Positions 859 to 27,137 are shown, counted from the stretch's first letter. The stretch is 32,000 nt of DNA from an uncultured Erysipelotrichaceae bacterium (GCA_964401865.1 CAYNZZ010000007.1:1-32000); one strand, 5' to 3'. Notes: generated by a model not told the origin, from the letters alone. Numbers and translations: made by a program.

Positions 859-865
859 GAATTTG

Positions 866-938
866 CTTGTACAACTGACGGAAGTGGAATTGACCACATG
901 AAGTATAAGATAATAATAGTTAGCCGACCGTCTGGGCA
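866..938 (+). promoter_or_regulatory. ZTP (ZMP/ZTP-sensing, pfl-motif) riboswitch aptamer
   Basis: P1 is cttgtac (866-872) paired with gtataag (903-909). The conserved core is ACTGACGGAAGTGGAATTGACCAC (874-897) and contains a GTGG/CCAC hairpin. An AT-rich linker is followed by the 3' module CCGACCGTCTGGGC (924-937). A near-identical element recurs at 16705-16773. It sits directly upstream of pflB, the classic context for this motif. Confidence 0.85.
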
Positions 939-967
939 TCACTTCAAATCTGATGTGACGGTTTTTA
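927..967 (+). terminator. intrinsic terminator acting as the riboswitch expression platform
   Basis: accgtc (927-932) and catc (937-940) pair with gatg (952-955) and gacggt (957-962), followed by a T-run (962-966). The 5' arm reuses the CCGTCTGGGC pseudoknot segment of the aptamer. Ligand-bound folding should therefore exclude the terminator, giving an ON switch. Confidence 0.7.
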
Positions 968-3233: not shown

Positions 3234-3234
3234 T

Positions 3235-4436: not shown

Positions 4437-5120
4437 ATGGAGAAAGTTTACGTCGGAAAGACTAAAGATGTCTATAAATTAGACAATGGTAATGTTCAAC
4501 TAAAATTCAAAGACGACTGCACAGGAAAGGACGGAGTGTTTGACCCAGGTGAAAACAGCATCGGTTTGACAATCGAAGGCATCGGTAAGGCAAATCTAGA
4601 AACATCTATTCATTTCTTCGAATTATTAAAAGAAAAAGGAATTAAAACTCATTTCGTTAGTGCTAATGTTGAAGAAGCAACAATGGAAGTGTTGCCTGCT
4701 AAAGTATTTGGACATGGTCTTGAAGTTATCTGTCGTTTGGTTGCAACAGGAAGCTTCATCCGTCGTTATGGTGAATATATTGAAAATGGAACTAGACTAG
4801 ATGGTGGTTATGTTGAATGCACATTTAAGAATGATGCGCTTGGCGATCCACTTGTTACAAAAGAAGGACTTGTAGCGCTTGGAATCATGTCAGATGAAAT
4901 GTTTGAAAGCATGAAAGAACAAACATTAAATATTACGAAAATCGTAGCTGAAGATTTAAAATCGATTGGTCTGGATCTATGGGATATTAAGTTCGAATTT
5001 GGATATCATGGTGATGAAGTTATCTTGATTGATGAGATTGCTTCGGGTAATATGCGTGTATATCAAGGTGATAAAATTGTTGATCCAGTAGAGCTTACAA
5101 AACTAATTTTAAATCGTTAA
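4437..5120 (+). CDS. purC: phosphoribosylaminoimidazole-succinocarboxamide (SAICAR) synthase
   Basis: The track starts at TTG 4425, but ATG 4437 ([15 protein letters not shown]) sits 5 nt after GGAGG (4427-4431) and matches the usual PurC N-terminus. The size (227 aa) and the KTKDVY, RLVATGS and LIDEI segments fit the short bacterial PurC family. Confidence 0.9.
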
Positions 5121-5125
5121 TCGAT

Positions 5126-5152
5126 AGCCCTATTTTCATAGGGCTTTATTTA
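5126..5152 (+). terminator. hairpin plus T-rich tail between purC and the purF-like gene
   Basis: agcccta (5126-5132) pairs with tagggct (5139-5145) across a 6-nt loop (ttttca, 5133-5138), followed by ttatttatt. It lies 20 nt before the next RBS. Confidence 0.7.
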
Positions 5153-5172
5153 TTGTATATAAAGGAGAGTAT

Positions 5173-6585
5173 ATGGGCGGATTTTTTGGTGTAGTGTCAA
5201 AGAAAGATTGTGTGCTAGATTTATATTTTGGTGTAGATTATCATTCGCATCTTGGGACTCGCAGAGGTGGCTTAGCTGTTTACGGAAGTGAAAGTGGATT
5301 TCAAAGATCTATTCACAATATTGAAAATTCACCTTTTAGAACTAAGTTTGAACATGAGATCGATTCATTCCATGGTAATTTAGGTATTGGTTGTATTTCT
5401 GATGGTGAAGCACAGCCGTTATTAGTGACGTCACATCTTGGTTCTTTTGCGATTACTACAGTAGGTCGAATCAACAATATAAATGAACTTAGAGATTTGT
5501 GTTTTGAATATGGAACAACACATTTTTTAGAGATGTCTGGCGGCGAGATAAACCCTACTGAACTTATTGCGGCTTTAATCAATCAAAAGTCTAGCATCGA
5601 AGAAGGTTTGGCTTTTGTGCAAGAAGCTGTAAGAGGTTCGATGAGTGTATTGGTTTTAACTAAAGATGGGATATATTGTTCAAGAGATAAATACGGTAGA
5701 ACGCCAGTGGTTATCGCTAGTAAGGATGATGCATATTGCGTCAGCTTTGAGTCTTCGGCATATTTGAATCTGGGATATCGTCACGTCAAAGATTTAGGAC
5801 CAGGCGAAATTGTCCTAATAACCGCTGAATATCATCGCGTATTAAAAGGCATCAATGAAAAAATGAAAATGTGCTCTTTCCTTTGGGTTTATTATGGTTA
5901 TCCAACAAGCGATTACGAAGGCAAAAATGTTGAAATGATGCGCAATGCGTGCGGACAAAAACTAGCTCAAAGGGATAATGTCGATGTCGATATTGTTGCC
6001 GGAGTACCGGATAGTGGTTTAGCGCATGCCATCGGTTATGCCAATGTATCTAAAAAGACATATGCAAGACCATTCATTAAATACACACCTACATGGCCAC
6101 GCTCGTTTATGCCTTCTAATCAAATTGAAAGAAATTTAATCGCTAGAATGAAGCTCATCCCAGTTGAAGAGCTGATAAAAAATCAAAAACTACTTTTGAT
6201 TGATGACTCAATTGTAAGAGGAACTCAGCTTGGCGAAACAACTGATTTCTTATATCGTTCAGGTGCTAAAGAGGTTCATGTACGTCCTGCTTGTCCACCT
6301 ATCATGTTCGGATGCAAGTTCTTGAATTTCTCAAGATCATCATCAGAAATGGATCTCATCACTAGGAAAGTGATATGTGAGTTAGAGCATACCGAAGATG
6401 TAAGTACCGAAACTTTAAAGGAATATGCTAATCCAGATGGTGAAAAATATAAAAGAATGGTTGAAGAAATTAGAAAAAGACTGCATTTCACATCTTTAGA
6501 TTTCGCAAGACTTGATGAACTTGTTGAATCAATCGGACTTGAGCCGTGTAAGCTATGTACATATTGCTGGAGCGGAGAAGAATAA
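5173..6585 (+). CDS. purF: amidophosphoribosyltransferase (PurF) homologue with an intact PRTase domain but no N-terminal Cys nucleophile
   Basis: 470 aa. The PRPP-binding loop is LLLIDDSIVRGTQ and the VAGVPDSGLAHAIGYA segment is PurF-like. Cys positions resemble [4Fe-4S]-type PurF (MCSFLWVYYGYP, PACPPIMFGC, C-terminal CKLCTYC). The N-terminus is MGGFFGVV where PurF has (M)CG(I/V)xG. RBS AAAGGAGAG (5161-5169) fixes the start, and an in-frame TAG at 5125-5127 excludes a longer N-terminus. Confidence 0.85.
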   Translation: MGGFFGVVSKKDCVLDLYFGVDYHSHLGTRRGGLAVYGSESGFQRSIHNIENSPFRTKFEHEIDSFHGNLGIGCISDGEAQPLLVTSHLGSFAITTVGRINNINELRDLCFEYGTTHFLEMSGGEINPTELIAALINQKSSIEEGLAFVQEAVRGSMSVLVLTKDGIYCSRDKYGRTPVVIASKDDAYCVSFESSAYLNLGYRHVKDLGPGEIVLITAEYHRVLKGINEKMKMCSFLWVYYGYPTSDYEGKNVEMMRNACGQKLAQRDNVDVDIVAGVPDSGLAHAIGYANVSKKTYARPFIKYTPTWPRSFMPSNQIERNLIARMKLIPVEELIKNQKLLLIDDSIVRGTQLGETTDFLYRSGAKEVHVRPACPPIMFGCKFLNFSRSSSEMDLITRKVICELEHTEDVSTETLKEYANPDGEKYKRMVEEIRKRLHFTSLDFARLDELVESIGLEPCKLCTYCWSGEE

Positions 6586-8651
6586 TGAAAGAATTAGATA
6601 ATTATGGAATTAACTTATTCTCTGACGAAGTGATGAAACAGAGGATACCTAATTCAATATATCGTGCATTTCATAAGTCTTTAGATGAGAACAAGCCTTT
6701 GAGCAAGGAAACAGCAACAGTCATTGCCAATGCGATGAAGATCTGGGCAATTGAAAAAGGTGCGACTCATTTTACTCATTGGTTCACTCCTCTTACTGGT
6801 TTGACTGCCGAAAAACATGATGCATTCTTAGAGTTGGAACAAGATAAACCAATTTTAGAATTCAGTGGCAAAGCTTTGAGAAAAGGTGAATCTGATGCAT
6901 CATCTTTTCCTAATGGCGGACTTAGAGCGACATTTGAAGCACGTGGTTATACCACTTGGGATGCGACATCTCCAGCCTTTGTCAAAGATGGTTCGTTATA
7001 TATTCCGACAATATTTGTATCTTATAACGGCGAAGCTTTAGACAAAAAGACTCCCCTTCTTAAATCGATTGAGGTATTATCTAAAAATGTTACTGAATTA
7101 TTGCATACTTTAGGCTATGAAGATGTAAAAAGCGTTAAACCTTATGTTGGTGTTGAACAGGAATACTTTTTGGTTGATGAAAAGTATTATAAGAAAAGAA
7201 TTGATTTAAAACTCACTGGCCGTACTTTATTTGGTGCTAAAGCTCCTAAAGGTCAAGAATTAGAAGACCACTATTATGGAAGCATTAAGATGCGAGTAGC
7301 TGAATTCATGAAAGAATTAGATGAAGAACTATGGAAATATGGTATTCCTGCTAAGACTAAACATAATGAAGCTGCTCCTTCCCAACATGAGATAGCCTGC
7401 ATATATCGTGATGCAAATATCACTTGTGACAACAATCAATTAGTTATGCCTTTAATGCATGATATAGCCAAAAAGAATGGTCTTAGATGCCTGCTTCATG
7501 AAAAGCCGTATTCATATGTAAATGGTTCGGGCAAACATAACAACTGGTCATTGGTTATGGATGATGGTACAAATTTATTTTCGCCTGGTGTAAATCCAGA
7601 AAATAACATCGTATTCTTGGCTAGTATTGCCTGCATGATTAAAGCGGTTGATGAGTATCAAGATTTATTGCGAGTTACAGCGGCTATTCTTGGCAATGAT
7701 TTAAGGCTTGGTGGTAATGAAGCGCCACCTGCTATCGTGTCAATGTTTTTGGGTGACGATATCACTGAACTTTTTGAAAGTATTGTAAATGGCAATAAAA
7801 GTTCGATAAACAAAGAAAGATTTGTAACCGGTGTTAGGGTGAGCAGTGATTTTAGCAAGGATACAACCGATCGCAACAGGACATCTCCTTTCGCATTCAC
7901 AGGCAATAAGTTTGAATTTAGAATGATTGGCTCATCGCAATCTGTAGCGACTGCCAATACGATTTTAAATGCCATATTTGCATACGAGGCAAAAGTAATG
8001 AGTGAAGAGATAAAAGCCGGAAACAGTGTAGACGATGTGATTAAGAAGTTTTATATTGAACACAAGCGCATACTGTTTAATGGCGATGGATATTCTAAAG
8101 AATGGCGTATTGAGGCTAAAAAAAGAGGCTTGAAAGAAAGAAAGAATGCTTATGAGGCTATCATGAGTCTTATGGAGCCAGAAAACGTCAATGCCTTAAC
8201 GAGCCTTGGCATATATACCGATTTAGAATTAAAATCACGTCAGGAGATACTTTTAGAAAATTACGCTAAATCAATACATGTCGAAGCGTCAACGGCACTT
8301 ATGATTGCTCGCCAGCAAATTTATCCTTGTATGATTAATGTTCTTAAAGATAAGTCTGGTTTAGCTATAGATTTAAAAGAGTTAAATTTAGAAGAAGAAT
8401 ATCTTTTGAATGATCTAAAGGAATTAAACGATCAAGTATCTAAACTTAAAAAGGAAATTGATGAACTTGATAAAGCCATTAATGATTATGATAATAACAA
8501 CGAGACAACGGAAGTTAAAGCGAAGATTGCCAGAGAAGATTTGATGTTCAAAATGAATAATCTAAGGCAAACTGTCGATACATTAGAACTGATGTGTGAT
8601 AAAGATATTTGGCCTTTGCCTAACTATGTTGATTTAATGTTTTCGATATAG
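6585..8651 (+). CDS. glnN: glutamine synthetase, type III (GSIII)
   Basis: 688 aa from ATG 6585; the track's 6555 start lies inside purF. GSIII hallmarks are ATHFTHWFTPLTGLTAEKHDAF, GVEQEYFLVD, KHNEAAPSQHE, HEKPYSYVNGSGKHNNWS, NRTSPFAFTGNKFEFR and C-terminal WPLPNYVDLMF. The ATG overlaps the purF-like stop (TAATG at 6583-6587), with GGAGCGGAGAAG upstream. Confidence 0.9.
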   Translation: MKELDNYGINLFSDEVMKQRIPNSIYRAFHKSLDENKPLSKETATVIANAMKIWAIEKGATHFTHWFTPLTGLTAEKHDAFLELEQDKPILEFSGKALRKGESDASSFPNGGLRATFEARGYTTWDATSPAFVKDGSLYIPTIFVSYNGEALDKKTPLLKSIEVLSKNVTELLHTLGYEDVKSVKPYVGVEQEYFLVDEKYYKKRIDLKLTGRTLFGAKAPKGQELEDHYYGSIKMRVAEFMKELDEELWKYGIPAKTKHNEAAPSQHEIACIYRDANITCDNNQLVMPLMHDIAKKNGLRCLLHEKPYSYVNGSGKHNNWSLVMDDGTNLFSPGVNPENNIVFLASIACMIKAVDEYQDLLRVTAAILGNDLRLGGNEAPPAIVSMFLGDDITELFESIVNGNKSSINKERFVTGVRVSSDFSKDTTDRNRTSPFAFTGNKFEFRMIGSSQSVATANTILNAIFAYEAKVMSEEIKAGNSVDDVIKKFYIEHKRILFNGDGYSKEWRIEAKKRGLKERKNAYEAIMSLMEPENVNALTSLGIYTDLELKSRQEILLENYAKSIHVEASTALMIARQQIYPCMINVLKDKSGLAIDLKELNLEEEYLLNDLKELNDQVSKLKKEIDELDKAINDYDNNNETTEVKAKIAREDLMFKMNNLRQTVDTLELMCDKDIWPLPNYVDLMFSI

Positions 8652-8827: not shown

Positions 8828-9799
8828 TTGAAAAATAATCTAAATAAGATTAAAGCGAAAACATTGCCACTTTTAATGATGATATCTTTATTATTGTTAA
8901 TAGGATTAACATCTTGTGATAACAGTAACAATCAAAGCCCTGATGTCAACAAGACCGATAGTTCTTCAGATAAAACGGAAAATTCAAGTTATGGAATCTT
9001 TGATAACATTGCCAGTATAAAAGTAATAGTCAATGGGACGGATGATAATGGATATTATCCATGTTATTTAACTTTCAATTCAAAGGAAGCTATAAATACC
9101 TTTGTCGATACAATACATATGATAAATGATAATAGCGAAATAGAGCTAAAATATGGAAGTTTTGAAGGAAAGATAGATGATATTGAAGAGTTGAAAAAGC
9201 GAAGACTATTTAATGGAATATCGTTGTCATCGGAAGATGAAAAATATCTAGGTATAAGCTGTGTATCGTTATTAATTGAGTACGATGACAATCGCAAACC
9301 TTCAAAAGTATGTGAATTTATTGATGGATATACTGATGTTTTTGAAGACGGTGATGGAATTAAAATCGTATATGATAGTCAAATAACTTATCTAGAAAAT
9401 AAAGATGATTTAATAATCAACGAAGTTGTTCAAATGATTAAAAACCATCTGCATTATGTGCAAATATATGACTATGATGGTAATTATGAATATACTAGAT
9501 TTCTTAATCCTCTACATGTTGAAACCGATGAATATACGATTGAGAGTGATCATTTCTTTCAAGCATTCTTAACGGATTATTGGATTGATTATATTTCTAA
9601 ACATAATTTCACAATATATAAATATAATAAAATCATTGGCGAATTGCCTGAACCAGATGGCGAGATAACTCAAGATATATATTTGGATGATGAAAATGGA
9701 AATATCTTTCAATATGCGTATGACAGAAAAGACAACATGAGATGTACAGTCGATAAAGAAAATGACAGCAAGTATTACTGTGAATATGAATCAGAATAG
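8828..9799 (+). CDS. hypothetical lipoprotein
   Basis: TTG start 8 nt after GAGG (8816-8819). The signal peptide has a lipobox (LLLIGLTSC-DN). The mature part is D/E/N/Y-rich with no recognised family. Confidence 0.7.
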   Translation: MKNNLNKIKAKTLPLLMMISLLLLIGLTSCDNSNNQSPDVNKTDSSSDKTENSSYGIFDNIASIKVIVNGTDDNGYYPCYLTFNSKEAINTFVDTIHMINDNSEIELKYGSFEGKIDDIEELKKRRLFNGISLSSEDEKYLGISCVSLLIEYDDNRKPSKVCEFIDGYTDVFEDGDGIKIVYDSQITYLENKDDLIINEVVQMIKNHLHYVQIYDYDGNYEYTRFLNPLHVETDEYTIESDHFFQAFLTDYWIDYISKHNFTIYKYNKIIGELPEPDGEITQDIYLDDENGNIFQYAYDRKDNMRCTVDKENDSKYYCEYESE

Positions 9800-16632: not shown

Positions 16633-16704
16633 GCCTTTGTTTAATCTGCTATTTTAACTAATTATTTTGTTTTAAAAACAGGGTAAATATGGTAACATTT
16701 AAGT

Positions 16705-16773
16705 GTTATACAACTGACGGAATAGTGGATTACCACATGGGAGTATAATTTTAAGGAGTCGACCGTCTGGGCC
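16705..16773 (+). promoter_or_regulatory. ZTP (pfl-motif) riboswitch aptamer, second copy
   Basis: P1 is ttatac (16706-16711) paired with gtataa (16743-16748). The core is ACTGACGGAATAGTGGATTACCAC (16713-16736) with a GTGG/CCAC hairpin. The 3' module is GTCGACCGTCTGGGC (16758-16772). It shares the ACTGACGGAA, ACCAC and CGACCGTCTGGGC blocks with the 866-938 copy. Confidence 0.85.
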
Positions 16774-16801
16774 ATTGTCTGGGATAGGTGACTCTTTTTT
16801 A
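16756..16801 (+). terminator. intrinsic terminator acting as the riboswitch expression platform
   Basis: gagtc(g)acc (16756-16764) pairs with ggtgactc (16787-16794), followed by tttttt. The 5' arm overlaps the aptamer 3' module. Confidence 0.75.
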
Positions 16802-16825
16802 TTTATTGAGAAAGGAAAAAAGAAA

Positions 16826-18496
16826 ATGCTAACAGATGTTCAAATTGCACAACAATGCACTATGGAACCAATCGTCAAGATTGCCTCTAAGCTAGGATTA
16901 ACCGAAGATGATTTAGAGCTTTATGGAAAATATAAAGCTAAGATTTCTTTAGAAACTATCAAACGTTTAAATGAAAAAGAAGATGGCAAATTAGTTCTGG
17001 TAACTGCTATCAATCCAACTCCGGCAGGAGAAGGAAAAACTACAACGATGATAGGCTTGGCACAAAGTTTAAATAAGATAGGTAAAAATGCTGTTGTAGC
17101 TATGCGTGAACCATCTTTGGGACCATGCTTTGGCGTTAAGGGTGGAGCTGCAGGTGGCGGTTATGCTCAAGTTGTGCCGATGGAAGATATTAACTTACAT
17201 TTTACAGGCGATATTCATGCCATCACCACTGCTAATAATTTGATTTCAGCGATGCTAGATAATTCTCTTCAACAAGGTAATCCCTTGAATATTGATGAAA
17301 GACAAATCGTATGGAAGAGATGTGTTGATTTAAACGATAGAGCTTTAAGACATATCGTAGTAGGTCTTGGTGGTAAAGCTAACGGGGTACCTAGAGAAGA
17401 TGGTTTTGACATTAGCGTCGCTAGCGAAGTAATGGGTGTATTGTGTTTGGCTACATCACTTGAAGATTTAAAAGCTAGAATCGCAAGAATGATTATTGCA
17501 TATTCGCGTGATGGCAAAGCAGTGACTGTTGATGATATTGGGGCAACTGGAGCTGTAACTTTACTTTTAAAAGATGCAATTAAACCAAATCTTGTGCAAA
17601 CCTTAACTCATACTCCTGTTTTTGTTCATGGTGGCCCATTTGCCAATATTGCACATGGCTGTAATTCGGTCATGGCGACAAAACTAGCTATTAAGTGCGG
17701 TGATATAGCTATTACTGAAGCTGGATTTGGAGCCGATTTAGGAGCTGAAAAATTCTTGGACATCAAGTGTCGTCAAGCTGGTTTGAAACCAGATGCTGTG
17801 GTAATTGTTGCAACAGTTAGAGCATTGAAGATGCACGGCGGATTAGATAAAAAAGAACTGGGTCACGAAGACTTAGAGGCATTGAGAAAAGGTGTTGAAA
17901 ACCTAGAGAAGCATATTGAAAATATTGCACAGTTTGGTGTTCCAAGCATTGTGGCTATTAATGCTTTTCCTACCGATACCGAAAATGAAATCAACCTTTT
18001 AAGAGAAATCTGTGAAAAGAAGGGTGTTAAAGTTTCAATTTCTGAGGTATGGGCCAAGGGCGCTGAAGGTGGTGTTGAACTAGCTAAAGAAGTAGTTAAG
18101 ATCTTAGAAGAAAAGAAAAGTAACTACAAACCAATTTATGATTTAGATATGTCAATTGCCGAGAAGATCAAAACTATTGCGTCAAAGATTTATGGTGCTG
18201 ATGATGTAATTTTCTCTAAGAAAGTGTTGACTAAGATTAACAGATATAGTGAACAAGGTTTAGACAAGCTTCCTATTTGTATCGCTAAAACTCAGTATTC
18301 TTTGAGTGATGATGCAAGTTTACTTGGAAGACCAACAAACTTTAAAATTGAAGTAAATGATTTGATTCCTAACGCTGGTTCCGGTTTCTTAGTTGCAATT
18401 TGCGGTGATATTATGCGTATGCCAGGACTTCCAAAAGTTCCGGCTGCTAATCATATGGATATCAAAGAAAACGGCGAAATTGTCGGTCTATTTTAA
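16826..18496 (+). CDS. fhs: formate--tetrahydrofolate ligase (10-formyl-THF synthetase)
   Basis: The track start 16775 would place the first 17 codons across the riboswitch terminator. ATG 16826 (MLTDVQIAQ...) gives 556 aa, the normal Fhs length and N-terminus. The P-loop is [10 protein letters not shown]. Confidence 0.95.
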
Positions 18497-18504
18497 GGAG
18501 TGAT

Positions 18505-18993
18505 ATGAAAGTAGCAATTATAATGGGTTCAACCAGTGATCTTGCAAAAGTTGAACCAGCGATTGAAATATTAAAAAGTCATCATGTTGATGTAGATGTT
18601 AGATGTCTTTCTGCTCATCGTGCGCATAAAGGATTGAGTGAATTTGTGGAAAAGCTCAATAATGATGGAACAGAGGCTATCATTACTGCTGCTGGTATGG
18701 CTGCTGCACTTCCTGGAGTCGTTGCTTCAATGACAACTATTCCAGTTATCGGCGTTCCTTTGTCAGGATCGGTACTAGATGGTATGGATGCATTGATGTC
18801 AATTGTTCAGATGCCGTCTGGAATACCGGTGGCAACTGTTGCGATTAATGGAAGCAAGAACGCTGCTCATCTAGCGTTACAAATTTTAGGCGTTAAATAT
18901 CCTGAAATACGTAAGACCTTGATAGCGGAAAGAGTAGTAATGGAAGAAAAAGCTATGCAGGCAAATAATGAAATAATCGAAAAATATAGATAA
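18505..18993 (+). CDS. purE: PurE (N5-CAIR mutase / AIR carboxylase family)
   Basis: 162 aa with [24 protein letters not shown] and [23 protein letters not shown] lies upstream. Confidence 0.93.
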
Positions 18994-19003
18994 GGGGAAG
19001 AAA

Positions 19004-20035
19004 ATGAGCGAAAAATATAAAGAAGCAGGCGTTGATTTAGAAGCAGGCTATGAATCGGTAAGACTAATTAAATCACATGTCGCAAGAACTAAGGTACTGG
19101 GTGCTGTTGATTCAATCGGTGCTTTTGGAGGAATGTTTGATCTAAGCCTGTTAAATATGAAAGAGCCAGTTTTGGTATCTGGAACTGATGGCGTTGGCAC
19201 GAAACTAATGATTGCCTTTGACTATGATAAACATGACACTATCGGTATTGATGCGGTAGCAATGTGTGTCAATGATGTTTTGGTGCAAGGCGCTATGCCA
19301 ATCTTTTTCTTAGATTATTTAGCTGTAGGCAAAAACTATCCTAAGAAAATTGAACAACTGGTCAAAGGTGTTGCTGACGGATGTGTATTGTCAGAATGCG
19401 CATTGATTGGTGGCGAAACAGCAGAAATGCCAGACATGTATGATGAAAATCACTATGATATTGCCGGATTCTGTGTTGGCGCAGTTGAGAAGAGCAAGCT
19501 GTTAAATGGTCAAAATATCGCTGAAGGTCATGTGTTAATTGGTTTGCCTTCTAGTGGCTGTCATTCTAATGGTTATTCCTTGATTAGAAAAGTCTTATTA
19601 AAAGATGCAAAGCTTGATTTACACACTAAATATGCTGAATTAGATAAAGAGTTAGGCGAAGAACTACTTACTCCTACAAAAATCTATGTCAAGGCTATTA
19701 AACATTTATTGAACAGTGGTCTTGATATTAAGGGTATGTCGCACATCACTGGTGGCGGATTCTTTGAAAATGTGCCAAGAATGTTGAAAGATGGTCAAGG
19801 TGTTAGCATTAATGTTAAATCATTCCCGAGACCAAAAATCTTTGATTTCATCATGAAGACTGGCGATATCGACGAAAAAGAAATGTATAATGTTTTTAAC
19901 ATGGGAATAGGATTTATCTTAGCTGTTGATAAAAATGATGTAGATAAGGCGATCACATTGTTAAGTGAAATTGACGAAAAGGCTTATGTAATTGGTGAAG
20001 TAACTAATTCGGGTATGGTTGATTTAAAATGGTAA
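19004..20035 (+). CDS. purM: phosphoribosylformylglycinamidine cyclo-ligase (AIR synthase)
   Basis: 343 aa with [25 protein letters not shown] and HITGGG motifs. Confidence 0.95.
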
Positions 20036-20637
20036 AAATCGCAGTATTTGTGTCAGGTGGTGGAACAAATTTACAATCGTTGATAGATCATAAGTTTGAA
20101 AACGGAAGCATTGAGCTTGTAATATCAAACAGAGAAAGTGCTTATGGTTTGAAACGAGCTAGAAATGCAGGTATTAAGGCAATATTCGAAAAAGATCAAA
20201 ATAAAATCTTAGAAATACTAAAAGAAAACGAGATTGATTTAATTGTCTTAGCTGGTTATCTAGCCATCATATCCGACGAACTTATCAAGGAATATGAAAA
20301 CAGAATAATCAACATCCATCCATCACTTATTCCATCATTCTGTGGAAAAGGATATTATGGTTTACATGTTCACGAGAAAGCTTTTGAAAGAGGGGTTAAA
20401 GTTTCAGGACCAACTGTTCACTTTGTAAACGGAGTGGTAGACGGCGGGCCTATTATCTTGCAGAAAGCAATTGATGTAAGTACAGCTAAAAGTCCTGAAG
20501 AGATGCAACAAATGGTCTTAGTCCTAGAACACGAGATTTTGCCTAAGGCCGTAGAATTATATTGTGATAATAAATTAGAAATAGTTGAAGGAAGGGTAAT
20601 AATAAATGAGAAGAGCGCTAATTTCAGTAACAGATAA
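20029..20637 (+). CDS. purN: phosphoribosylglycinamide formyltransferase
   Basis: 202 aa with [23 protein letters not shown] and SGPTVHFV. The ATG overlaps the purM end by 7 nt. Confidence 0.93.
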
Positions 20638-22129
20638 AACTGGTGTCGTTGAGTTCGCTAAAGGTCTAGAAAAGCTAGGCTTTGAAATTGTATCAACCGG
20701 TGGTACACTGTCTAAACTACAAAGCGAAGGTGTAAAAGCTATTGCCATTGATGAAGTAACAGGTTTTCCTGAAATTCTAGATGGTCGTGTTAAAACTTTA
20801 CATCCAATGGTTCACGGCGGTTTGTTGTATAGAAGAGATAACGCAAATCATGTAGAGACAGTGGAAAAGATGAACATTAAACCAATTGATTTGGTTTGTG
20901 TTAATCTATACGAATTTGAAAAAGCATTGCGTAATCATAAGCCACTTGATGAAATGATTGAAAACATTGATATTGGTGGTCCTTCAATGATTAGAAGTGC
21001 AGCTAAAAACTTTAAAGATGTGTTGATTGTTACTGATCCAAGTGATTATGATTCGGTATTAAAAGCTATTGAAGAAAAAGGCGATGATTTTGATTTCAGA
21101 AAGAATCTTGCTTATAAGGCATTCTCTAAAACAGGTGCTTATGATGCGATGATTTCTCGTTTTTTCGCTGGTATTTGTAATGATGAATTCCCAGATATTT
21201 TAAATATTTCGTTAAAGAAGGTTGAACATTTAAGATATGGTGAAAACTCGCAACAGAAAGCTAATAAATATGAAGATTCATATGTAGAAAAATCTTTGCT
21301 TGATTATGAACAACTTCATGGTAAAGAAATATCTTTCAATAATGTTAATGACTTATATGGGGCGGTGGCATTAGTTAGAGAATTTAAAGATCAGATTGTT
21401 ACAGCTGCTATTAAACATTCAACACCATGTGGTGTGGCAATTGGTGAGAGTGGTTATGATTCTTATATGAAAGCATACAATGCTGACCCACAATCAATTT
21501 TCGGTGGCATTGTAGCTACTAACTACAAGATTGATAAAGAAACTGCTGTTAAAATGAATGAGATTTTCTTAGAAATTGTTGCAGCGCCGGATTTTGATGA
21601 AGAAGCTTTGGAAATCTTGGAAAAGAAGAAAAATCTTCGCATTTTGAAACTCAAAAATATTGACGCAAGAGATGCAAAATATGACATTAAATATTTAGAA
21701 GGCAAGGTTTTAGTTCAAGATTTAAATACTGTGATGTTTGATGAATTAAAGACTGTTACTGAAGCAAAACCTACTGATGAACAGATCAAAGATATGGAAT
21801 TCGGTATGCGCGTTGTTAAATATGTTAAGTCTAATGCTATCTGTATTGTTAAAAATGGTGTAACACTTGCGATTGGCGGAGGTCAGACATCAAGAGTATG
21901 GGCTTTAGAAAATGCTATTCACAACAATCCAGATAAAGATTTTAATGGGTCAGTGTTAGCTTCGGATGCTTTCTTCCCATTCAATGACTGTGTTAAGGTT
22001 GCACATGATGCAGGAATTAGTGCCATCATTCAACCTGGTGGAAGCATTAAAGATCAAGATTCTATCGACTTATGTAATGAATATGGTATGCCAATGGTAT
22101 TTAGTGGCTATCGTCATTTCCGCCATTAG
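20606..22129 (+). CDS. purH: bifunctional AICAR transformylase / IMP cyclohydrolase
   Basis: 507 aa. The N-terminus is [11 protein letters not shown] (MGS-like domain), with KTLHP and C-terminal SGYRHFRH. The start overlaps the purN 3' end, with GGAAGGG upstream. Confidence 0.95.
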   Translation: MRRALISVTDKTGVVEFAKGLEKLGFEIVSTGGTLSKLQSEGVKAIAIDEVTGFPEILDGRVKTLHPMVHGGLLYRRDNANHVETVEKMNIKPIDLVCVNLYEFEKALRNHKPLDEMIENIDIGGPSMIRSAAKNFKDVLIVTDPSDYDSVLKAIEEKGDDFDFRKNLAYKAFSKTGAYDAMISRFFAGICNDEFPDILNISLKKVEHLRYGENSQQKANKYEDSYVEKSLLDYEQLHGKEISFNNVNDLYGAVALVREFKDQIVTAAIKHSTPCGVAIGESGYDSYMKAYNADPQSIFGGIVATNYKIDKETAVKMNEIFLEIVAAPDFDEEALEILEKKKNLRILKLKNIDARDAKYDIKYLEGKVLVQDLNTVMFDELKTVTEAKPTDEQIKDMEFGMRVVKYVKSNAICIVKNGVTLAIGGGQTSRVWALENAIHNNPDKDFNGSVLASDAFFPFNDCVKVAHDAGISAIIQPGGSIKDQDSIDLCNEYGMPMVFSGYRHFRH

Positions 22130-22137
22130 GAGTAAAT

Positions 22138-23388
22138 ATGAAGGTATTAGTGATTGGTAGTGGTGGCAGAGAACATGCACTTGCGTATGCAATTTCAAAA
22201 AGTCCTAAATTAGATAAGTTATATTGCTTGCCTGGTAACCCCGGTATGGCAGACATTGCGACATTGGTTGATGGAAAAGTTGATGATTTAGAGGCTATCT
22301 TAAATTTTGTGGAAAGCGAAGGGATTGATTTTACTGTCATTGGTCCCGAAGTTCCTTTATGCCTTGGGTTGGCTGACCTTCTTGAAAGAAATGGTCATAA
22401 AGTGTTTGGACCTATTTCTAAAGGAGCTCATTTAGAGGGCTCCAAAGCATATGCAAAAGAATTTATGGTTAAACATAATATTCCGACTGCCGCTTATAAA
22501 GAAGTTGATAATTATGAAGATGGCATTAAGGCCTTAGAAACATTTAATTATCCGCTTGTCATTAAAGCTGATGGTTTGGCTGCCGGCAAGGGCGTCGTCA
22601 TTTGTGAAGATGAGGCTGTTGCTACAGAAACTCTAAAAGAGATGATGTTAGAAGGAGCTTTAAACAGGGCTGGCAATGTAGTGGTAATTGAAGAATTTTT
22701 GACCGGTTTTGAATGTTCTTTGTTGTGTTTTGTCGATGGCGAAAGCATTGTTCCGATGGTTAGTGTTAAAGACCATAAACAAATTTATGATGATAATAAG
22801 GGACCTAACACTGGCGGAATGGGCAGCGTTTCACCTAATCCATTTTTAAAGGATATGGATGAAGTTTTTGATAAAACAATCTTAAAACCATTTCTACAAG
22901 GCTTAAAAGAAGATGGTATCGACTATCGTGGGGTTATTTTTATCGGGCTGATGATCGAAAATGATGAAGCTAAAGTCTTAGAGTTTAATGTGAGATTTGG
23001 CGATCCAGAAACTCAATCGATAGTTTTAAGACTTGATAGCGATTTACTAGAAATAATGATGGCAGTAAGTGAAAAACGCTTGAAAGATATTGATATAAAG
23101 TGGAAAGATGAAACAGCAGTATGTCTTGTCTTAGCATCTGATGGTTATCCTAACACTTATAAAAAAGGATTAGCAATTACAGGCTTAGATAAAACCGATG
23201 AAGATATTGTTGTTTTCCACGCCGGAACTAAAAAAAGTGATAATCAGATTCTTACTAATGGTGGTCGTGTTTTAAATATTTGCGCATTAGGTAAGGACTT
23301 GAGAGATTGTCGCAATAAAGTATATAAGGCAGCTGATAAAATTAACTTTGAAGGTAAATATTATCGCAAAGATATTGGATTACATTAG
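22138..23388 (+). CDS. purD: phosphoribosylamine--glycine ligase
   Basis: 416 aa. The N-terminus is MKVLVIGSGGREHALA, with an ATP-grasp core (LVIKADGLAAGKGV, EFNVRFGDPE). Confidence 0.95.
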   Translation: MKVLVIGSGGREHALAYAISKSPKLDKLYCLPGNPGMADIATLVDGKVDDLEAILNFVESEGIDFTVIGPEVPLCLGLADLLERNGHKVFGPISKGAHLEGSKAYAKEFMVKHNIPTAAYKEVDNYEDGIKALETFNYPLVIKADGLAAGKGVVICEDEAVATETLKEMMLEGALNRAGNVVVIEEFLTGFECSLLCFVDGESIVPMVSVKDHKQIYDDNKGPNTGGMGSVSPNPFLKDMDEVFDKTILKPFLQGLKEDGIDYRGVIFIGLMIENDEAKVLEFNVRFGDPETQSIVLRLDSDLLEIMMAVSEKRLKDIDIKWKDETAVCLVLASDGYPNTYKKGLAITGLDKTDEDIVVFHAGTKKSDNQILTNGGRVLNICALGKDLRDCRNKVYKAADKINFEGKYYRKDIGLH

Positions 23389-23396
23389 GAGATAGT

Positions 23397-26300
23397 ATGA
23401 ATAAAGTGTACCGAGTTTATGTAAAGAAACAAAAAGCTTATGCCGTTGAAGCAAATGAGTTGCTAGAAAATATCAAGACTCAATTAAAACTAGACAATTT
23501 AAAGGATTTAGAGGTTATCAATCGCTATGATATTGAAGGGGTAAGCGAAGAAAATTTAAATAAGGCTATTCCTACTATATTGAGTGAACCGATGGTTGAT
23601 GAAGTATATCTTGACGAATACGACTTCAGCAATCATGCCTTTGCGGTAGAATTTTTACCTGGGCAATATGACCAAAGGGCTGATGCTACTAAACAATGTT
23701 TTGAAATATTAGGGCAGGATGGCGAAGTTAAAGTTAAATTTGCCAAGGTTATTAATTTATTTGGTGAATTGAGCGAAGAAGATGTGTTAAAGATTAAACA
23801 TTTTATGGTTAATCCGGTTGATCAAAGGATTGCGAGCCTAGATAAATTTGAATCTCTAGATGATGAAAAAATTGAAATCAATAAAGTTCCAAGTGTTGAA
23901 GGCTTCATCAATTTCGGTGATGAAGAATTGAAAAATCTGTTGAACAAAATGTCATTAGCAATGAATTTTGATGACCTTAAATTGACACAGGATTACTTTA
24001 AAAATGATGCTCAAAGAGATCCGAGCGAAACAGAAATTCGTGTATTAGATACATATTGGTCAGACCATTGTCGTCATACTACTTTCGCAACGATTATTGA
24101 TAATATTAAAGTTAATGACGATGAATTCAAATCGGTTTATGAACAAGATTTAAGTGATTATATCAATTCGCGTAAACTTGTCTACGGTCTTGATACCAAA
24201 CGTCCTATAACATTAATGGATTTGGCAACAATTTCAATGAAAGAACTTAGAAAACAAGGCTATCTTGATGATTTAGAGGTTTCTAAAGAAATCAATGCCT
24301 GCTCAGTTGAAGTTGATGTTAATACTAGTGAGGGTGTAGAAAAATGGTTATTGATGTTCAAGAATGAAACACATAATCATCCAACTGAAATCGAGCCATT
24401 TGGTGGTGCTGCCACTTGTCTTGGCGGAGCAATAAGAGATCCGCTTTCAGGCAGAGCCTATGTATATCAATCTATGCGTATAACTGGAGCAGGTGATCCT
24501 CGCACATCATTTGAAGATACACTAAAAGGAAAGCTCCCTCAACGCAAAATATGTAAAGAAGCTGCCCATGGTTTTTCATCGTATGGAAATCAGATTGGCC
24601 TTACAACTGGTTATGTTCATGAAATATATGACGAAGGCTACTTGGCAAAGAGAATGGAGCTAGGGGCTGTTGTAGCCGCAGCGCCAAAATCGCAGGTTAA
24701 ACGTTTAGAGCCATTAAAGGGACATATTGTTCTCTTGATTGGTGGCAGAACTGGTAGAGATGGTATTGGTGGGGCAACCGGCTCATCAAAGACACATAGT
24801 GAGAAAACCACAAGTACTGCTGGAGCCGAAGTACAAAAGGGTAATCCAGTTGAAGAAAGAAAGATTCAAAGATTATTCAGAAATCCTTTAGTATCCGAAA
24901 AGATTGTTCGTTGTAATGACTTTGGTGCCGGTGGTGTATCGGTAGCGGTTGGTGAATTAGCTGATAGCTTAGACATCGAACTGGATGCAGTATTAAAGAA
25001 ATATGATGGATTGAACGGTACTGAACTTGCAATTTCTGAATCTCAAGAGCGTATGGCTATTGTCATTGACCCGAAAGATATGGATTTCATCACCAAGGCT
25101 TGTAAAGATGAAAATCTTGAAGTTGTTAAAGTGGCAACTGTAACTGATGACGGTCATTTAAGAATGTCATATCTTGGACAGACTATTGTTGATATTAAAC
25201 GTGATTTCTTAGATGAGAATGGTGCTCCAAGACATCAAGACGTCATGATTCAAGGACCTGATATGCGTGTTAATCCATTTAAGGGTGTATCAGAAAAAGA
25301 CTTTGTCAAAGCTAGCAAAGATATTTTAAGTTCGCTTGATGTATGTAGCCAAAAAGGTTTAGTTGAATGTTTTGATTCTTCTATTGGTGCATCTACTGTT
25401 TTATCGCCATTTGGTGGCAAATATAATCAGACGGAAACTGAAGGTATGGTTGCCTTGCTTCCAGTTTTAGGTAAAGAGACAACTACTTGTTCAATCATGG
25501 CATATGGCTATGATCCAAAGGTTGCTAAGTGGTCGCCATATCATGGAGCTATTTATGCAGTTGTTGAATCATTGACTAAGATTGTGGCAATGGGCGGAAA
25601 CTATAAAACAGTTAGATTCTCATTTCAAGAATTCTTTGAAAAGTTATTAAATGATGCTACAAGATGGGGCAAACCTTTAGAAGCATTATTAGGCGCTTAT
25701 AAAGCACAGAGCGCATTGAAGTTGGCATCAATAGGTGGAAAAGACTCGATGTCTGGTTCGTTTGAAAACTTAGATGTTCCGCCAACATTTGTATCTTTTG
25801 CGATTACTCATGGCGAAGCCGATCAAATCATTACGCCAGAACTAAAGGGCGAGAATCATAAATTGTATGTATTAACAGCCAAAAGAGATGATAAACACTT
25901 GATTGATTTTAACAGTTTGATGTCAATGTATGATGAAGTTATCAAATTAAATGGTGAAAAGAAAATATATAGTGCCTATACAGTTAAAACCGGCGGTATA
26001 TTAGAAGCTATCTATAAGATGGCATTTGGCAATAAGATTGGCGTATTGTTGAATGATGAATTATCGATCGAAGAACTAAGCTATAAAAACTATGGTTCAA
26101 TCATTATCGAAGTTGACGAAAAAACCACTATTGATTATCCGCATAAACTTGTCGGTAAGACTATTGGCGAGGCGTGTGTATGCTATGGCGATAAGAAAGT
26201 AAGTCTCGATGAAGCATATCAAGCTTATGAAATGCCTTTAGAGAGTGTATATCCTAGTAAGATCGAAACTAAAAAGAGTGCAGTAATCTCTAAGGAGTGC

Positions 26301-27137
26301 ACTTTAAGACCTAAGCTACACGCATCAAAGACATATGATGAAGTAAAGGTTGTAATACCGGTATTTCCAGGAACTAACTGTGAATATGATTCGAAACGTG
26401 CTTTCGAAAGAGCTGGCGCCAAGGTCGAACTTGTAATCATTAGAAATAAGACTAAGGAAGATGTTGAAAACTCAATTAATGATTTAGTTAAAGCTATTAG
26501 TGATACACAAATTATTATGCTCCCTGGCGGTTTTAGCGCTGGTGACGAACCGGAAGGATCGGGTAAATTTATCGCTACCGTATTGAGAAATGAGAAGATA
26601 AAAAATGCCATTGATGATTTATTGGATAATCGCGAGGGCTTAATGATTGGTATCTGCAATGGTTTCCAAGCATTAATCAAACTGGGATTACTACCTGATG
26701 GACATATCAGAAATATGTCGAAAGATGATGCTACTCTAACCTTTAACACCATTAATCGTCATTTATCACAAATGGTAAGAACAAAGATTACTTCTACTAA
26801 TTCACCATGGCTGGCAAATGTTAGTGTTGGTGATATTCATACAATTCCTATCTCTCATGGTGAAGGTAGATTTGTAGCTCCTGAAGCACTAATTGAAGAA
26901 TTGTTCAATAATGGACAGGTAATAACTCAATATGTTGATAATAATGATGAAGTTACAATGGAATCACCATTTAACCCTAACGGATCAATGATGGCTATTG
27001 AAGGCATTGTATCAAGAGATGGAAGAATACTTGGCAAGATGGGGCACAGTGAAAGAATCGGTGAAAACCGCTATAAGAACATTTATGGCGAAATGGATCA
27101 AAAGCTGTTTGAGGCTGGCGTAAGCTACTTCAAATAA
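23397..27137 (+). CDS. purL: phosphoribosylformylglycinamidine synthase, single-chain large form with C-terminal glutaminase
   Basis: 1246 aa. The synthetase part has HNHPTEIEPFGGAATC and DFGAGG. The C-terminal triad-type amidotransferase has GICNGFQ and SHGEGR. Confidence 0.95.
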   Translation: MNKVYRVYVKKQKAYAVEANELLENIKTQLKLDNLKDLEVINRYDIEGVSEENLNKAIPTILSEPMVDEVYLDEYDFSNHAFAVEFLPGQYDQRADATKQCFEILGQDGEVKVKFAKVINLFGELSEEDVLKIKHFMVNPVDQRIASLDKFESLDDEKIEINKVPSVEGFINFGDEELKNLLNKMSLAMNFDDLKLTQDYFKNDAQRDPSETEIRVLDTYWSDHCRHTTFATIIDNIKVNDDEFKSVYEQDLSDYINSRKLVYGLDTKRPITLMDLATISMKELRKQGYLDDLEVSKEINACSVEVDVNTSEGVEKWLLMFKNETHNHPTEIEPFGGAATCLGGAIRDPLSGRAYVYQSMRITGAGDPRTSFEDTLKGKLPQRKICKEAAHGFSSYGNQIGLTTGYVHEIYDEGYLAKRMELGAVVAAAPKSQVKRLEPLKGHIVLLIGGRTGRDGIGGATGSSKTHSEKTTSTAGAEVQKGNPVEERKIQRLFRNPLVSEKIVRCNDFGAGGVSVAVGELADSLDIELDAVLKKYDGLNGTELAISESQERMAIVIDPKDMDFITKACKDENLEVVKVATVTDDGHLRMSYLGQTIVDIKRDFLDENGAPRHQDVMIQGPDMRVNPFKGVSEKDFVKASKDILSSLDVCSQKGLVECFDSSIGASTVLSPFGGKYNQTETEGMVALLPVLGKETTTCSIMAYGYDPKVAKWSPYHGAIYAVVESLTKIVAMGGNYKTVRFSFQEFFEKLLNDATRWGKPLEALLGAYKAQSALKLASIGGKDSMSGSFENLDVPPTFVSFAITHGEADQIITPELKGENHKLYVLTAKRDDKHLIDFNSLMSMYDEVIKLNGEKKIYSAYTVKTGGILEAIYKMAFGNKIGVLLNDELSIEELSYKNYGSIIIEVDEKTTIDYPHKLVGKTIGEACVCYGDKKVSLDEAYQAYEMPLESVYPSKIETKKSAVISKECTLRPKLHASKTYDEVKVVIPVFPGTNCEYDSKRAFERAGAKVELVIIRNKTKEDVENSINDLVKAISDTQIIMLPGGFSAGDEPEGSGKFIATVLRNEKIKNAIDDLLDNREGLMIGICNGFQALIKLGLLPDGHIRNMSKDDATLTFNTINRHLSQMVRTKITSTNSPWLANVSVGDIHTIPISHGEGRFVAPEALIEELFNNGQVITQYVDNNDEVTMESPFNPNGSMMAIEGIVSRDGRILGKMGHSERIGENRYKNIYGEMDQKLFEAGVSYFK

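What the first reader, a model, noticed from the sequence alone, without database searches (positions are those of the whole stretch)
5173..8651. PurF homologue without the Cys nucleophile, overlapping a type III glutamine synthetase
Seen in sequence:
- The PurF-family ORF begins MGGFFGVV, where class II (Ntn) amidotransferases need Cys as residue 1 after Met or propeptide removal (E. coli MCGIVG; B. subtilis ...ECGVFGI).
- RBS AAAGGAGAG and an in-frame TAG at 5125-5127 leave no alternative start.
- By eye, the positions I recall as glutamine-site residues in E. coli PurF (Arg73, Asn101, Asp127) also differ: GIGCISDG vs GIGHVRYP, TTVGRINN vs LAHNGNLT, INPTE vs SDSE.
- The PRTase half (DDSIVRGT loop) and the Fe-S-type Cys pattern (CxxCxxC tail) look intact.
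- The stop overlaps the ATG of an apparently catalytically complete GSIII (TAATG at 6583-6587), which suggests coupled translation.
- The seven-gene pur operon at 16826-27137 contains no purF.

Inference: this may be an ammonia-dependent PRA synthase whose nitrogen supply is tied to, or physically partnered with, GSIII. It could instead be a regulatory pseudo-amidotransferase. I cannot tell from this window whether the pairing has been described.
Basis: partly seen in the sequence, partly recalled or inferred. Interest (0 to 1): 0.75.

Follow-up and report, generated by a model that had tools for sequence, protein, structure and literature searches.

The report
Cysteine-less PurF paralogue coupled to GSIII
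This gene encodes a full-length copy of the first enzyme of purine synthesis (PurF) that has lost every residue needed to use glutamine but keeps its sugar-phosphate site. It belongs to a large uncharacterised family that probably uses free ammonia, and only in this small clade is it co-expressed with a type III glutamine synthetase.

Summary
ORF 5173-6585 is a 470-aa PurF homologue starting MGGFFG, with no alternative start. Profile alignment puts Gly where the Cys nucleophile should be, and the Arg26, Arg73/Tyr74, Asn101 and Asp127 equivalents are substituted or deleted. The PRPP loop, the flexible loop and four Fe-S cysteines are intact. The AlphaFold model superposes on B. subtilis PurF (TM 0.84-0.86). 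Its TAA overlaps the ATG of an intact GSIII.

It is not a one-off. It belongs to a broad family (Bacillota, Muribaculaceae, Treponema, WOR-3, some archaea) with N-terminus M-[G/S/T/A]-G and its own conserved N-domain motifs.

In relatives it occupies the purF slot of pur operons (purE-C-Fx-M-N-H-D). In other relatives it lies beside a canonical Cys-bearing purF.

GSIII linkage is clade-restricted: about 6 of 91 other loci examined. In that clade GSIII sits in purine operons, sometimes beside guaB rather than beside the PurF paralogue.

Best reading: an ammonia-dependent phosphoribosylamine synthase, with GSIII recruited to the purine regulon to supply glutamine for PurL and GuaA. A physical complex is not supported.

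Cys-less "PurF'" was noted in archaea in 2011 with the same untested hypothesis. I found no description of the bacterial family or of the GSIII pairing.

The parts
4437..5120 (+). purC (SAICAR synthetase, 227 aa), first gene of the conserved purC | purFx-glnN triad
   Evidence: Pfam SAICAR_synt, E = 1.4e-40. The same gene lies upstream of PurFx in L001-L004, L089 and L090.
5126..5145 (+). Terminator-like hairpin (8 bp stem, then a U-rich tail) between purC and purFx
   Evidence: Terminator scan. RNA fold -12.9 kcal/mol. A hairpin of different sequence lies at the same place in L004, L089 and L090. Function is inferred: a partial terminator or attenuator that separates purC from purFx-glnN.
5161..5169 (+). 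Ribosome-binding site AAAGGAGAG of purFx
   Evidence: Read directly from the sequence.
5173..5868 (+). PurFx N-terminal domain (aa 1-232): Ntn-amidotransferase fold without the Cys1 nucleophile or the glutamine-site residues, but with its own conserved motifs (GxDYHSHLG, IHNI, FxxKF, ISD, N127)
   Evidence: phmmer against 1ao0. hhalign at 99.65% probability. GATase_7, E = 4.7e-7. Conservation analysis.
5869..6585 (+). PurFx PRTase domain (aa 233-470) with PRPP loop DDSIVRGTQ, flexible loop, four Fe-S Cys equivalents and a family-specific insertion of about 25-30 aa near the C-terminus; stop TAA at 6583-6585
   Evidence: Alignments. AlphaFold pLDDT 93.3. Foldseek TM 0.84-0.86 to 1ao0.
6583..6587 (+). 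TAATG stop/start overlap between purFx and glnN
   Evidence: The identical junction GAAGAATAATGAA is present in L004. L089 has a 2-nt spacer and L090 a 9-nt spacer.
6585..8651 (+). glnN, type III glutamine synthetase (688 aa), full length with catalytic motifs
   Evidence: Pfam GSIII_N 8e-72, Gln-synt_C 4e-23, Gln-synt_C-ter 3e-34. Aligns over residues 4-687 to B. fragilis GSIII 3o6x, E = 9e-178.
16700..27137 (+). Context: ZTP riboswitch (16700-16779) followed by fhs-purE-purM-purN-purH-purD-purL, a pur operon without purF or purC
   Evidence: Rfam RF01750, 54.8 bits. Pfam assignments.

Best explanation
I call this protein PurFx. It is a PurF-derived phosphoribosylamine (PRA) synthase that has lost glutaminase chemistry and most likely uses free ammonia: PRPP + NH3 -> PRA + PPi.

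Shown:
- The whole PurF fold is kept, together with the PRPP-binding loop, the flexible loop that closes over PRPP, and the [4Fe-4S] ligands.
- The Cys nucleophile, the oxyanion Asn and the Arg/Asp that hold glutamine are gone.
- The N-domain is nonetheless conserved almost as strongly as the catalytic domain, with a new set of near-invariant polar residues.

Inferred:
- The former glutamine pocket has been remodelled into an entry or capture site for ammonia/ammonium that feeds the pre-existing channel to the PRPP site.
- In this clade PurFx is the purine pathway's own first enzyme.
- purFx and glnN form a translationally coupled pair behind a hairpin that follows purC.
- GSIII is there because it has been recruited to the purine regulon, to make the glutamine still needed by PurL and GuaA. 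It does not hand nitrogen to PurFx.
For: - Catalytic-site audit: (Cys1 to Gly, Arg26 to Leu, RY deleted, Asn101 to Val, Asp127 lost). Searches show the PRTase motifs and four Cys ligands kept.
- Fold: AlphaFold pLDDT 93.3, pTM 0.90. Best PDB matches are all PurF, TM 0.84-0.86.
- Family: position 2 is G, S, T or A and never C across phyla.
- N-domain constraint: pairwise identity among diverse members is 35.6% for the N-domain against 40.3% for the C-domain, so the N-domain is under selection.
- PurFx occupies the purF slot with no canonical purF within 10 kb:
  - L054, L057, L081, L082: purE-C-Fx-M-N-H-D.
  - L066: purE-M-N-H-D-L-Fx-fhs-guaB-glnN.
  - L004: purC-Fx-glnN-fhs-purE-M-N-H-D.
  - L052: purC-purB-Fx.
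  - L084: purL-Fx in Muribaculaceae.
- The window's own pur operon lacks purF, and purC sits with purFx.
- Established knowledge, as quoted in PMC3261824: E. coli PurF with Cys1 replaced loses glutamine activity but still uses ammonia.
- GSIII as regulon member: the triad is conserved in L004, L089 and L090. GSIII lies next to guaB in L090 and L066.
Against: - No biochemical or genetic test exists for any family member.
- I could not check whether the window genome has a canonical purF elsewhere.
- In at least 7 of the 80 genome loci a canonical Cys-bearing purF lies next to or near purFx (L018, L034, L051, L056, L060, L062, L072). The two are therefore not simply alternatives and may have non-redundant or cooperative roles.
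- Most loci have purFx as a stand-alone gene with variable neighbours and no purine or nitrogen riboswitch.
- Archaeal and WOR-3 members show no pur genes within 10 kb.
- The strongly conserved, remodelled N-domain could serve something other than ammonia entry.
Confidence: 0.55

Rival explanations
1. PurFx is a half-dead partner or regulator of canonical PurF. It would assemble into PurF-type oligomers with the Cys-bearing enzyme, or act alone as a sensor, and modulate activity or feedback control rather than supply PRA itself. This would resemble the pseudoenzyme subunits seen in other pathways.
For: - Canonical purF and purFx are directly adjacent in several genomes: L018 E-C-F-Fx-M-N-H-D, L056 and L062 Fx-F, and L034, L051, L072 C-F-B-Fx.
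- Crenarchaeal purF and purF' are also neighbours (PMC3261824).
- The N-domain is conserved although not catalytic.
Against: - All PRTase catalytic motifs and the flexible loop are retained. A purely regulatory subunit would not need them.
- Several pur operons contain only purFx in the purF slot.
- The window clade shows no canonical purF in four near-complete pur clusters.
Confidence: 0.15
2. PurFx is a neo-functionalised phosphoribosyltransferase. It would use PRPP with a nucleophile other than ammonia, or make PRA for a purpose other than bulk purine synthesis, for example a feedback-insensitive supply for thiamine. The remodelled N-domain would bind the new ligand.
For: - Family-specific near-invariant polar residues lie in the former glutamine pocket region: D22, Y23, H24, H48, S76, D77, N127.
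- A family-specific C-terminal insertion is present.
- Most loci are stand-alone and unlinked to pur genes.
- Members occur in archaeal contigs without nearby pur genes.
Against: - Where genomic context exists, it consists of purine genes.
- In PurF the nucleophile site is closed by the flexible loop, which is conserved here. This leaves little room for a large nucleophile.
Confidence: 0.1
3. PurFx and GSIII form a physical complex in which ammonia or nitrogen status is shared or channelled. Translational coupling would ensure stoichiometric assembly.
For: - The TAATG overlap is conserved in the window and in L004. Spacers are short in L089 and L090.
- The pair is conserved behind a hairpin in four lineages whose surroundings differ.
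Against: - Outside this clade GSIII is directly adjacent to purFx in none of the loci examined.
- In L066 GSIII is in the same operon but separated from purFx by fhs and guaB.
- GS consumes ammonia and makes glutamine, which PurFx cannot use. No chemical rationale for channelling is apparent.
- Overlapping stop/start codons are common in compact operons.
Confidence: 0.07

Closest known systems
Glutamine PRPP amidotransferase PurF, B. subtilis type with [4Fe-4S] cluster (PDB 1ao0/1gph; TIGR01134)
   Same: - Same two-domain fold (TM 0.84-0.86).
- Same PRPP loop, flexible loop and four Cys ligands.
- Same operon slot in relatives.
   Different: - No Cys1, no oxyanion Asn, no Arg73/Tyr74 and no Asp127.
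- Only 26% identity, and 187 bits against the 350-bit family cut-off.
- Own conserved N-domain motifs and a C-terminal insertion.
PurF' of Crenarchaeota and Mlab_0150 of Methanocorpusculum labreanum (Brown et al. 2011, PMC3261824)
   Same: - PurF paralogues lacking the N-terminal Cys (Ala, Val or Ser instead).
- Located beside purF and other pur genes.
- Proposed, without test, to be ammonia-dependent.
   Different: - Described only in archaea and only as a note in a curation paper.
- Sequence-level relatedness to the present family was not tested here, because no PurF' sequences were available.
- No GSIII link was reported.
Type III glutamine synthetase GlnN (B. fragilis, PDB 3o6x)
   Same: The downstream gene aligns end to end with it (E = 9e-178) and has all three GSIII Pfam domains.
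   Different: - Here it is translationally coupled to a PurF paralogue.
- It is embedded in purine operons next to purC or guaB.
- I found no description of this context.

Membership tests
PurF, glutamine PRPP amidotransferase (EC 2.4.2.14, TIGR01134) | Two-domain architecture: Ntn-type amidotransferase domain plus type I PRTase domain | tested here: met
   Pfam GATase_7 plus a weak Pribosyltran hit. AlphaFold model matches PurF structures over the full length, TM 0.84-0.86.
PurF, glutamine PRPP amidotransferase (EC 2.4.2.14, TIGR01134) | N-terminal Cys nucleophile, exposed by Met or propeptide removal | tested here: not met
   Gly2 aligns with the Cys. No upstream start or Cys codon exists. 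The family has G, S, T or A at this position.
PurF, glutamine PRPP amidotransferase (EC 2.4.2.14, TIGR01134) | Glutamine-site and oxyanion residues (Arg26, Arg73/Tyr74, Asn101-Gly102, Asp127, E. coli numbering) | tested here: not met
   Leu27, an 8-residue deletion, Val97-Gly98, and no Asp with a 5-residue insertion. Only the Gly is kept.
PurF, glutamine PRPP amidotransferase (EC 2.4.2.14, TIGR01134) | PRPP-binding loop (DDSIVRGT) and flexible loop of the PRTase site | tested here: met
   LLLIDDSIVRGTQ. K303, R310, S311, Q317, R320 and K327 are conserved family-wide.
PurF, glutamine PRPP amidotransferase (EC 2.4.2.14, TIGR01134) | Score at or above the curated equivalog cut-off | tested here: not met
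   187.2 bits against a cut-off of 350.
PurF, glutamine PRPP amidotransferase (EC 2.4.2.14, TIGR01134) | Glutamine-dependent PRA synthesis in vitro or complementation of purF | not testable with these tools
   Requires an enzyme assay or genetics.
PurF, B. subtilis-type Fe-S subclass | Four Cys ligands of the [4Fe-4S] cluster (Cys236, 382, 437, 440 in B. subtilis) | tested here: met
   C234, C381, C462 and C465 align with them and are invariant or at least 90% conserved.
PurF' (Cys-less PurF paralogue; Brown et al. 2011) | PurF homologue without the N-terminal Cys | tested here: met
   Definition taken from PMC3261824.
PurF' (Cys-less PurF paralogue; Brown et al. 2011) | Clusters with purF and other purine genes | tested here: met
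   In the window it sits next to purC. In relatives it sits in pur operons, and next to canonical purF in L018, L056, L062 and others.
PurF' (Cys-less PurF paralogue; Brown et al. 2011) | Same phylogenetic cluster as the crenarchaeal PurF' proteins | not tested
The paper's supplements hold locus tags and trees only.
Type III glutamine synthetase (GlnN) | GSIII_N domain, GS catalytic domain and GSIII C-terminal domain, full length | tested here: met
   PF12437, PF00120 and PF18318. Residues 4-687 align to 3o6x residues 28-728, including the EQEYFLVD, KHNEAAPSQHEIA and NGSGKHNNWS motifs.

The most novel reading that the evidence does not exclude
- In a wide range of anaerobes the committed step of purine synthesis would be glutamine-independent.
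- PurFx's remodelled ex-glutaminase pocket (D22, Y23, H24, H48, S76, D77, N127) would be a dedicated ammonium-capture site feeding the old ammonia channel.
- PurFx would be the sole PRA synthase in lineages such as this one.
- In this clade it would additionally work in obligate stoichiometric partnership with GSIII, splitting incoming ammonia between PRA and glutamine.
Probability: 0.12. Interest if true: 0.8.

Novelty: new variant of a known kind. Interest (0 to 1): 0.55.

Why it matters
- Annotation: pipelines name these proteins amidophosphoribosyltransferase, which implies glutamine use. If they are ammonia-dependent, metabolic models of gut, rumen and sediment anaerobes carry the wrong nitrogen and ATP stoichiometry for purine synthesis.
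- Enzymology: the family offers a natural experiment on what an amidotransferase's glutaminase domain does once its chemistry is lost. Here it stays under selection with new conserved residues.
- Testability: it makes the 2011 archaeal PurF' hypothesis testable in tractable bacteria.
- Regulation: placement of GSIII inside purine operons is a separate, smaller point about how some Bacillota secure glutamine for PurL and GuaA.

Tried and rejected
- Riboswitch or leader upstream of purC/purFx: Rfam at gathering and at E <= 5 gave nothing credible. Rfam on 16 related loci found only tRNAs.
- PurBox and TnrA/GlnR boxes: at chance level in the window and absent upstream of purFx in 61 loci. K-mer enrichment gave only AT-rich noise.
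- A conserved neighbour across the family: clustering 874 neighbouring ORFs gave no family present in more than 11 of 80 loci. A polar amino-acid ABC transporter upstream of purFx occurs in a handful of syntenic Lachnospiraceae loci only.
- Literature: nine searches found only Brown et al. 2011.
- Ser1 as an alternative Ntn nucleophile: rejected. G and S alternate among close relatives, and the oxyanion and glutamine-binding residues are missing in both forms.
- Sequencing or start-site artefact: rejected.
- L052 ORF 8482-9951 was first taken for a canonical purF. Pfam shows it is purB.
- Model coordinates are not exposed, so I could not check whether the conserved residues cluster in 3D.
Full report
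**What is in the window**

- The region holds three co-oriented genes: purC (4437-5120), a 470-aa PurF homologue that I call PurFx (5173-6585), and a 688-aa type III glutamine synthetase (6585-8651).
- The PurFx start is unambiguous. The RBS AAAGGAGAG lies at 5161-5169. An in-frame TAG lies at 5125-5127, and the 15 codons between it and the ATG contain no start codon and no Cys codon.
- The TAA of purFx (6583-6585) shares its last base with the ATG of glnN.
- Upstream lies a ZTP riboswitch followed by pfl-pflA. Downstream lies a second ZTP riboswitch followed by fhs-purE-purM-purN-purH-purD-purL. That operon lacks purF and purC.

**Catalytic audit of PurFx**

phmmer against B. subtilis PurF (1ao0) and a profile-profile alignment give the same mapping. 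The profile comparison used 15 diverse family members against 7 canonical PurFs recovered from related loci, at 99.65% probability.

| Canonical PurF feature | PurFx equivalent |
|---|---|
| Cys nucleophile | Gly2 |
| Arg of the HRG motif | Leu27 |
| 'RY' (Arg73/Tyr74, E. coli numbering) | removed by an 8-residue deletion |
| Asn of HNG (oxyanion hole) | Val97 |
| Asp127 | not Asp, next to a 5-residue insertion |

- The PRTase half is intact: GVPDSG, the flexible-loop residues K303, R310, S311, Q317, R320 and K327, and the PRPP loop DDSIVRGTQ.
- The four cysteines aligning with the B. subtilis [4Fe-4S] ligands are also kept: C234, C381, C462 and C465.
- The curated purF model TIGR01134 scores 187 bits against a cut-off of 350.
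- An AlphaFold model built on 66 family sequences is confident (pLDDT 93.3, pTM 0.90). Its best PDB matches are all PurF, with TM 0.84-0.86 to 1ao0 at 26% identity.

**It is a family, not an accident**

- Of the 120 closest database proteins, all but one begin M-G/S-G-F-F.
- In a search of 1.84 billion cluster representatives, full-length relatives down to about 35% identity begin M-[G/S/T/A/K/D]-G. They share GxDYHSHLG, IHNI, FxxKF and ISDxDxQPL. Cys-bearing sequences appear only at much lower scores.
- None of the 83 related loci then held has Cys at position 2.
- Members come from Lachnospiraceae, Ruminococcus, Oscillospiraceae, Erysipelotrichaceae, Treponema, Muribaculaceae, WOR-3, Cloacimonadota and archaeal contigs carrying PolD and Cdc6.
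- Among diverse members the N-domain is conserved almost as well as the catalytic domain (35.6% against 40.3% pairwise identity). It has near-invariant residues not found in canonical PurF: D22, Y23, H24, L27, H48, F55, F59, S76, D77 and N127. The dead glutaminase domain is therefore under selection.

**Genomic context across relatives**

I annotated 80 species-level genome loci plus contigs looked up individually. This makes 91 loci outside the window (L004-L094). Three patterns emerge.

1. PurFx occupies the purF slot with no canonical purF within 10 kb:
   - purE-purC-Fx-purM-purN-purH-purD in L054, L057, L081 and L082;
   - purE-M-N-H-D-L-Fx-fhs-guaB-glnN in L066;
   - purC-Fx-glnN-fhs-purE-M-N-H-D in L004;
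   - purC-purB-Fx in L052;
   - purL-Fx in a Muribaculaceae contig.
2. PurFx lies beside a canonical PurF, which has a propeptide ending ..EECGVFG plus LQHRGQES, GHVRYST, AHNGNL and SDTE:
   - L018 (E-C-F-Fx-M-N-H-D);
   - L034, L051 and L072 (C-F-B-Fx);
   - L056 and L062 (Fx-F);
   - L060.
3. In most loci purFx stands alone, with variable neighbours and no recognisable riboswitch or regulator box.

**The GSIII link**

- Direct purFx-glnN adjacency occurs in the window, in near-identical contigs (L001, L003), and in L004, L089 and L090. In these PurFx is 76-83% identical to the window protein, and GSIII is about 61% identical in L004.
- In all four lineages a hairpin with a U-rich tail follows purC. 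Its sequence differs between lineages but its position is the same. purFx and glnN are separated by -1, -1, 2 and 9 nt.
- The surroundings differ between lineages: pyrimidine genes in L089; purL-M-N-H-D and guaB in L090.
- At 74% identity (L091) purFx stands alone. In L066 GSIII is in the same purine operon but sits after fhs and guaB. In L069 it is about 6 kb away. No other locus among those examined has GSIII nearby.
- GSIII itself is ordinary: all three GSIII domains and an end-to-end alignment to B. fragilis GlnN.
- My reading is that this Erysipelotrichales-like clade has recruited GSIII into the purine regulon. PurL (present here with its glutaminase domain) and GuaA still need glutamine. 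The coupling to purFx reflects operon compaction or stoichiometric co-expression rather than nitrogen hand-over. GS makes glutamine, which PurFx cannot use.

**Mechanism proposed**

- Shown:
  - An intact PRPP site inside an intact PurF fold.
  - No glutaminase residues.
  - A selected, remodelled N-domain.
  - Purine-operon context.
- Established knowledge: E. coli PurF with Cys1 replaced loses glutamine-dependent activity but still accepts ammonia. This is quoted from Mei and Zalkin 1989 in PMC3261824.
- Inferred:
  - PurFx makes PRA from PRPP and ammonia, which saves the ATP spent on glutamine.
  - That would make sense in ammonia-rich anaerobic habitats.
  - The conserved polar residues around the former glutamine pocket may form the ammonia/ammonium entry site of the old channel.
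- Confidence is about 0.55.
- Co-occurrence with canonical purF in one operon is compatible with isozymes for different nitrogen regimes. It also keeps alive a hetero-oligomer or regulatory role (about 0.15) and a neo-functionalised PRTase (about 0.10).
- A dedicated PurFx-GSIII complex is the least supported reading (about 0.07).

**Comparison with what is known**

- The closest characterised family is B. subtilis-type PurF. PurFx fails its defining glutaminase features and its curated score threshold, so it should not be filed as EC 2.4.2.14.
- The closest published idea is PurF' (Brown et al. 2011). These are crenarchaeal PurF paralogues with Ala or Val in place of Cys, next to purF, suggested to be ammonia-dependent. 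The same paper describes Mlab_0150, which has Ser in place of Cys.
- I could not test whether those proteins belong to the same clade.
- Nine literature searches found nothing on the bacterial family, its distribution or the GSIII pairing. The PDB holds only canonical PurFs.
- I therefore rate it a new variant of a known kind: an uncharacterised, widely distributed, consistently mis-annotated branch of PurF, with a clade-specific GSIII association.

**Limits**

- The key open question is whether this genome, or any purFx genome with a full pathway, lacks a canonical purF.
- Model coordinates are not exposed, so spatial clustering of the conserved N-domain residues is inferred from alignment to PurF, not measured.

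Noticed in passing
window 861-944 and 16700-16779: Two ZTP (pfl-motif) riboswitches. One lies ahead of pfl-pflA (993-3957). The other lies ahead of fhs-purE-M-N-H-D-L. Together they form a formate / 10-formyl-THF / purine regulon that flanks the purC-purFx-glnN cluster, which has no riboswitch of its own.
   Followed up: partly
window 5126-5145; L004 9951-9977; L089 8643-8667; L090 9947-9970: A terminator-like hairpin with a U-rich tail sits between purC and purFx in all four lineages that carry the triad. Stem sequences differ between lineages. There is hardly any room for a promoter before the purFx RBS, so purFx-glnN expression may depend on read-through or on a promoter inside purC.
   Followed up: partly
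P0242, P0253 (database proteins): An intermediate PurF group keeps a propeptide, the Cys and the LQHRGQ motif. Like PurFx, it lacks the 'RY' loop and the Asn of HNG (GIGHVSLKERQPI, FSGNIMN), and it scores closer to PurFx than classical PurFs do. It may mark the lineage from which PurFx arose, or a second atypical glutaminase site.
   Followed up: no
L085 4882-6297, L087 8001-9386, L094 10001-11416: Archaeal PurFx genes lie directly downstream of the PolD large subunit (DP2) and upstream of a TctA-family gene in three contigs, with no pur genes within 8-10 kb. One record is labelled Pacearchaeota. If the host lacks de novo purine synthesis, this would argue for another role.
   Followed up: partly
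P0300-P0418; L092 (WOR-3 complete genome CP070664.1): In the WOR-3, Cloacimonadota and archaeal branch, position 2 is Ser in 118 of 119 sequences (MSG[IV]V..). In the Bacillota branch G and S are about equal. In CP070664.1 purFx stands next to a rubrerythrin gene, and a glutaminase-less NAD synthase gene lies 8 kb away.
   Followed up: no
L026 7595-9958, L040, L064, L034, L051, L069: A polar amino-acid ABC transporter (SBP_bac_3, permease, ATPase) lies immediately upstream of purFx or of purC-purF-purB-purFx in several Lachnospiraceae loci. The ATPase gene ends 4-43 nt before purFx in L040 and L026. The loci are syntenic, so this may be a single event.
   Followed up: partly
P0014 (629 aa): A close homologue (E = 5e-271) is 629 aa long, with two GATase_7 stretches ahead of the PRTase domain. 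This is either an internal duplication of part of the N-domain or an assembly artefact.
   Followed up: no
window 8828-9799: A 323-aa ORF just after glnN has a lipoprotein-type signal (..LLLLIGLTSCDNSN) and no Pfam match. The equivalent position in the near-identical contig L001 holds different genes (Peptidase_C69, AAA_21/RloB), so the region downstream of glnN is variable.
   Followed up: no
PurFx proteins about 73% identical to the window's are labelled both Erysipelotrichaceae/Coprobacillus and Lachnospiraceae. N-domains 65-66% identical occur in Treponema. This suggests horizontal spread of the gene among gut anaerobes.
   Followed up: no
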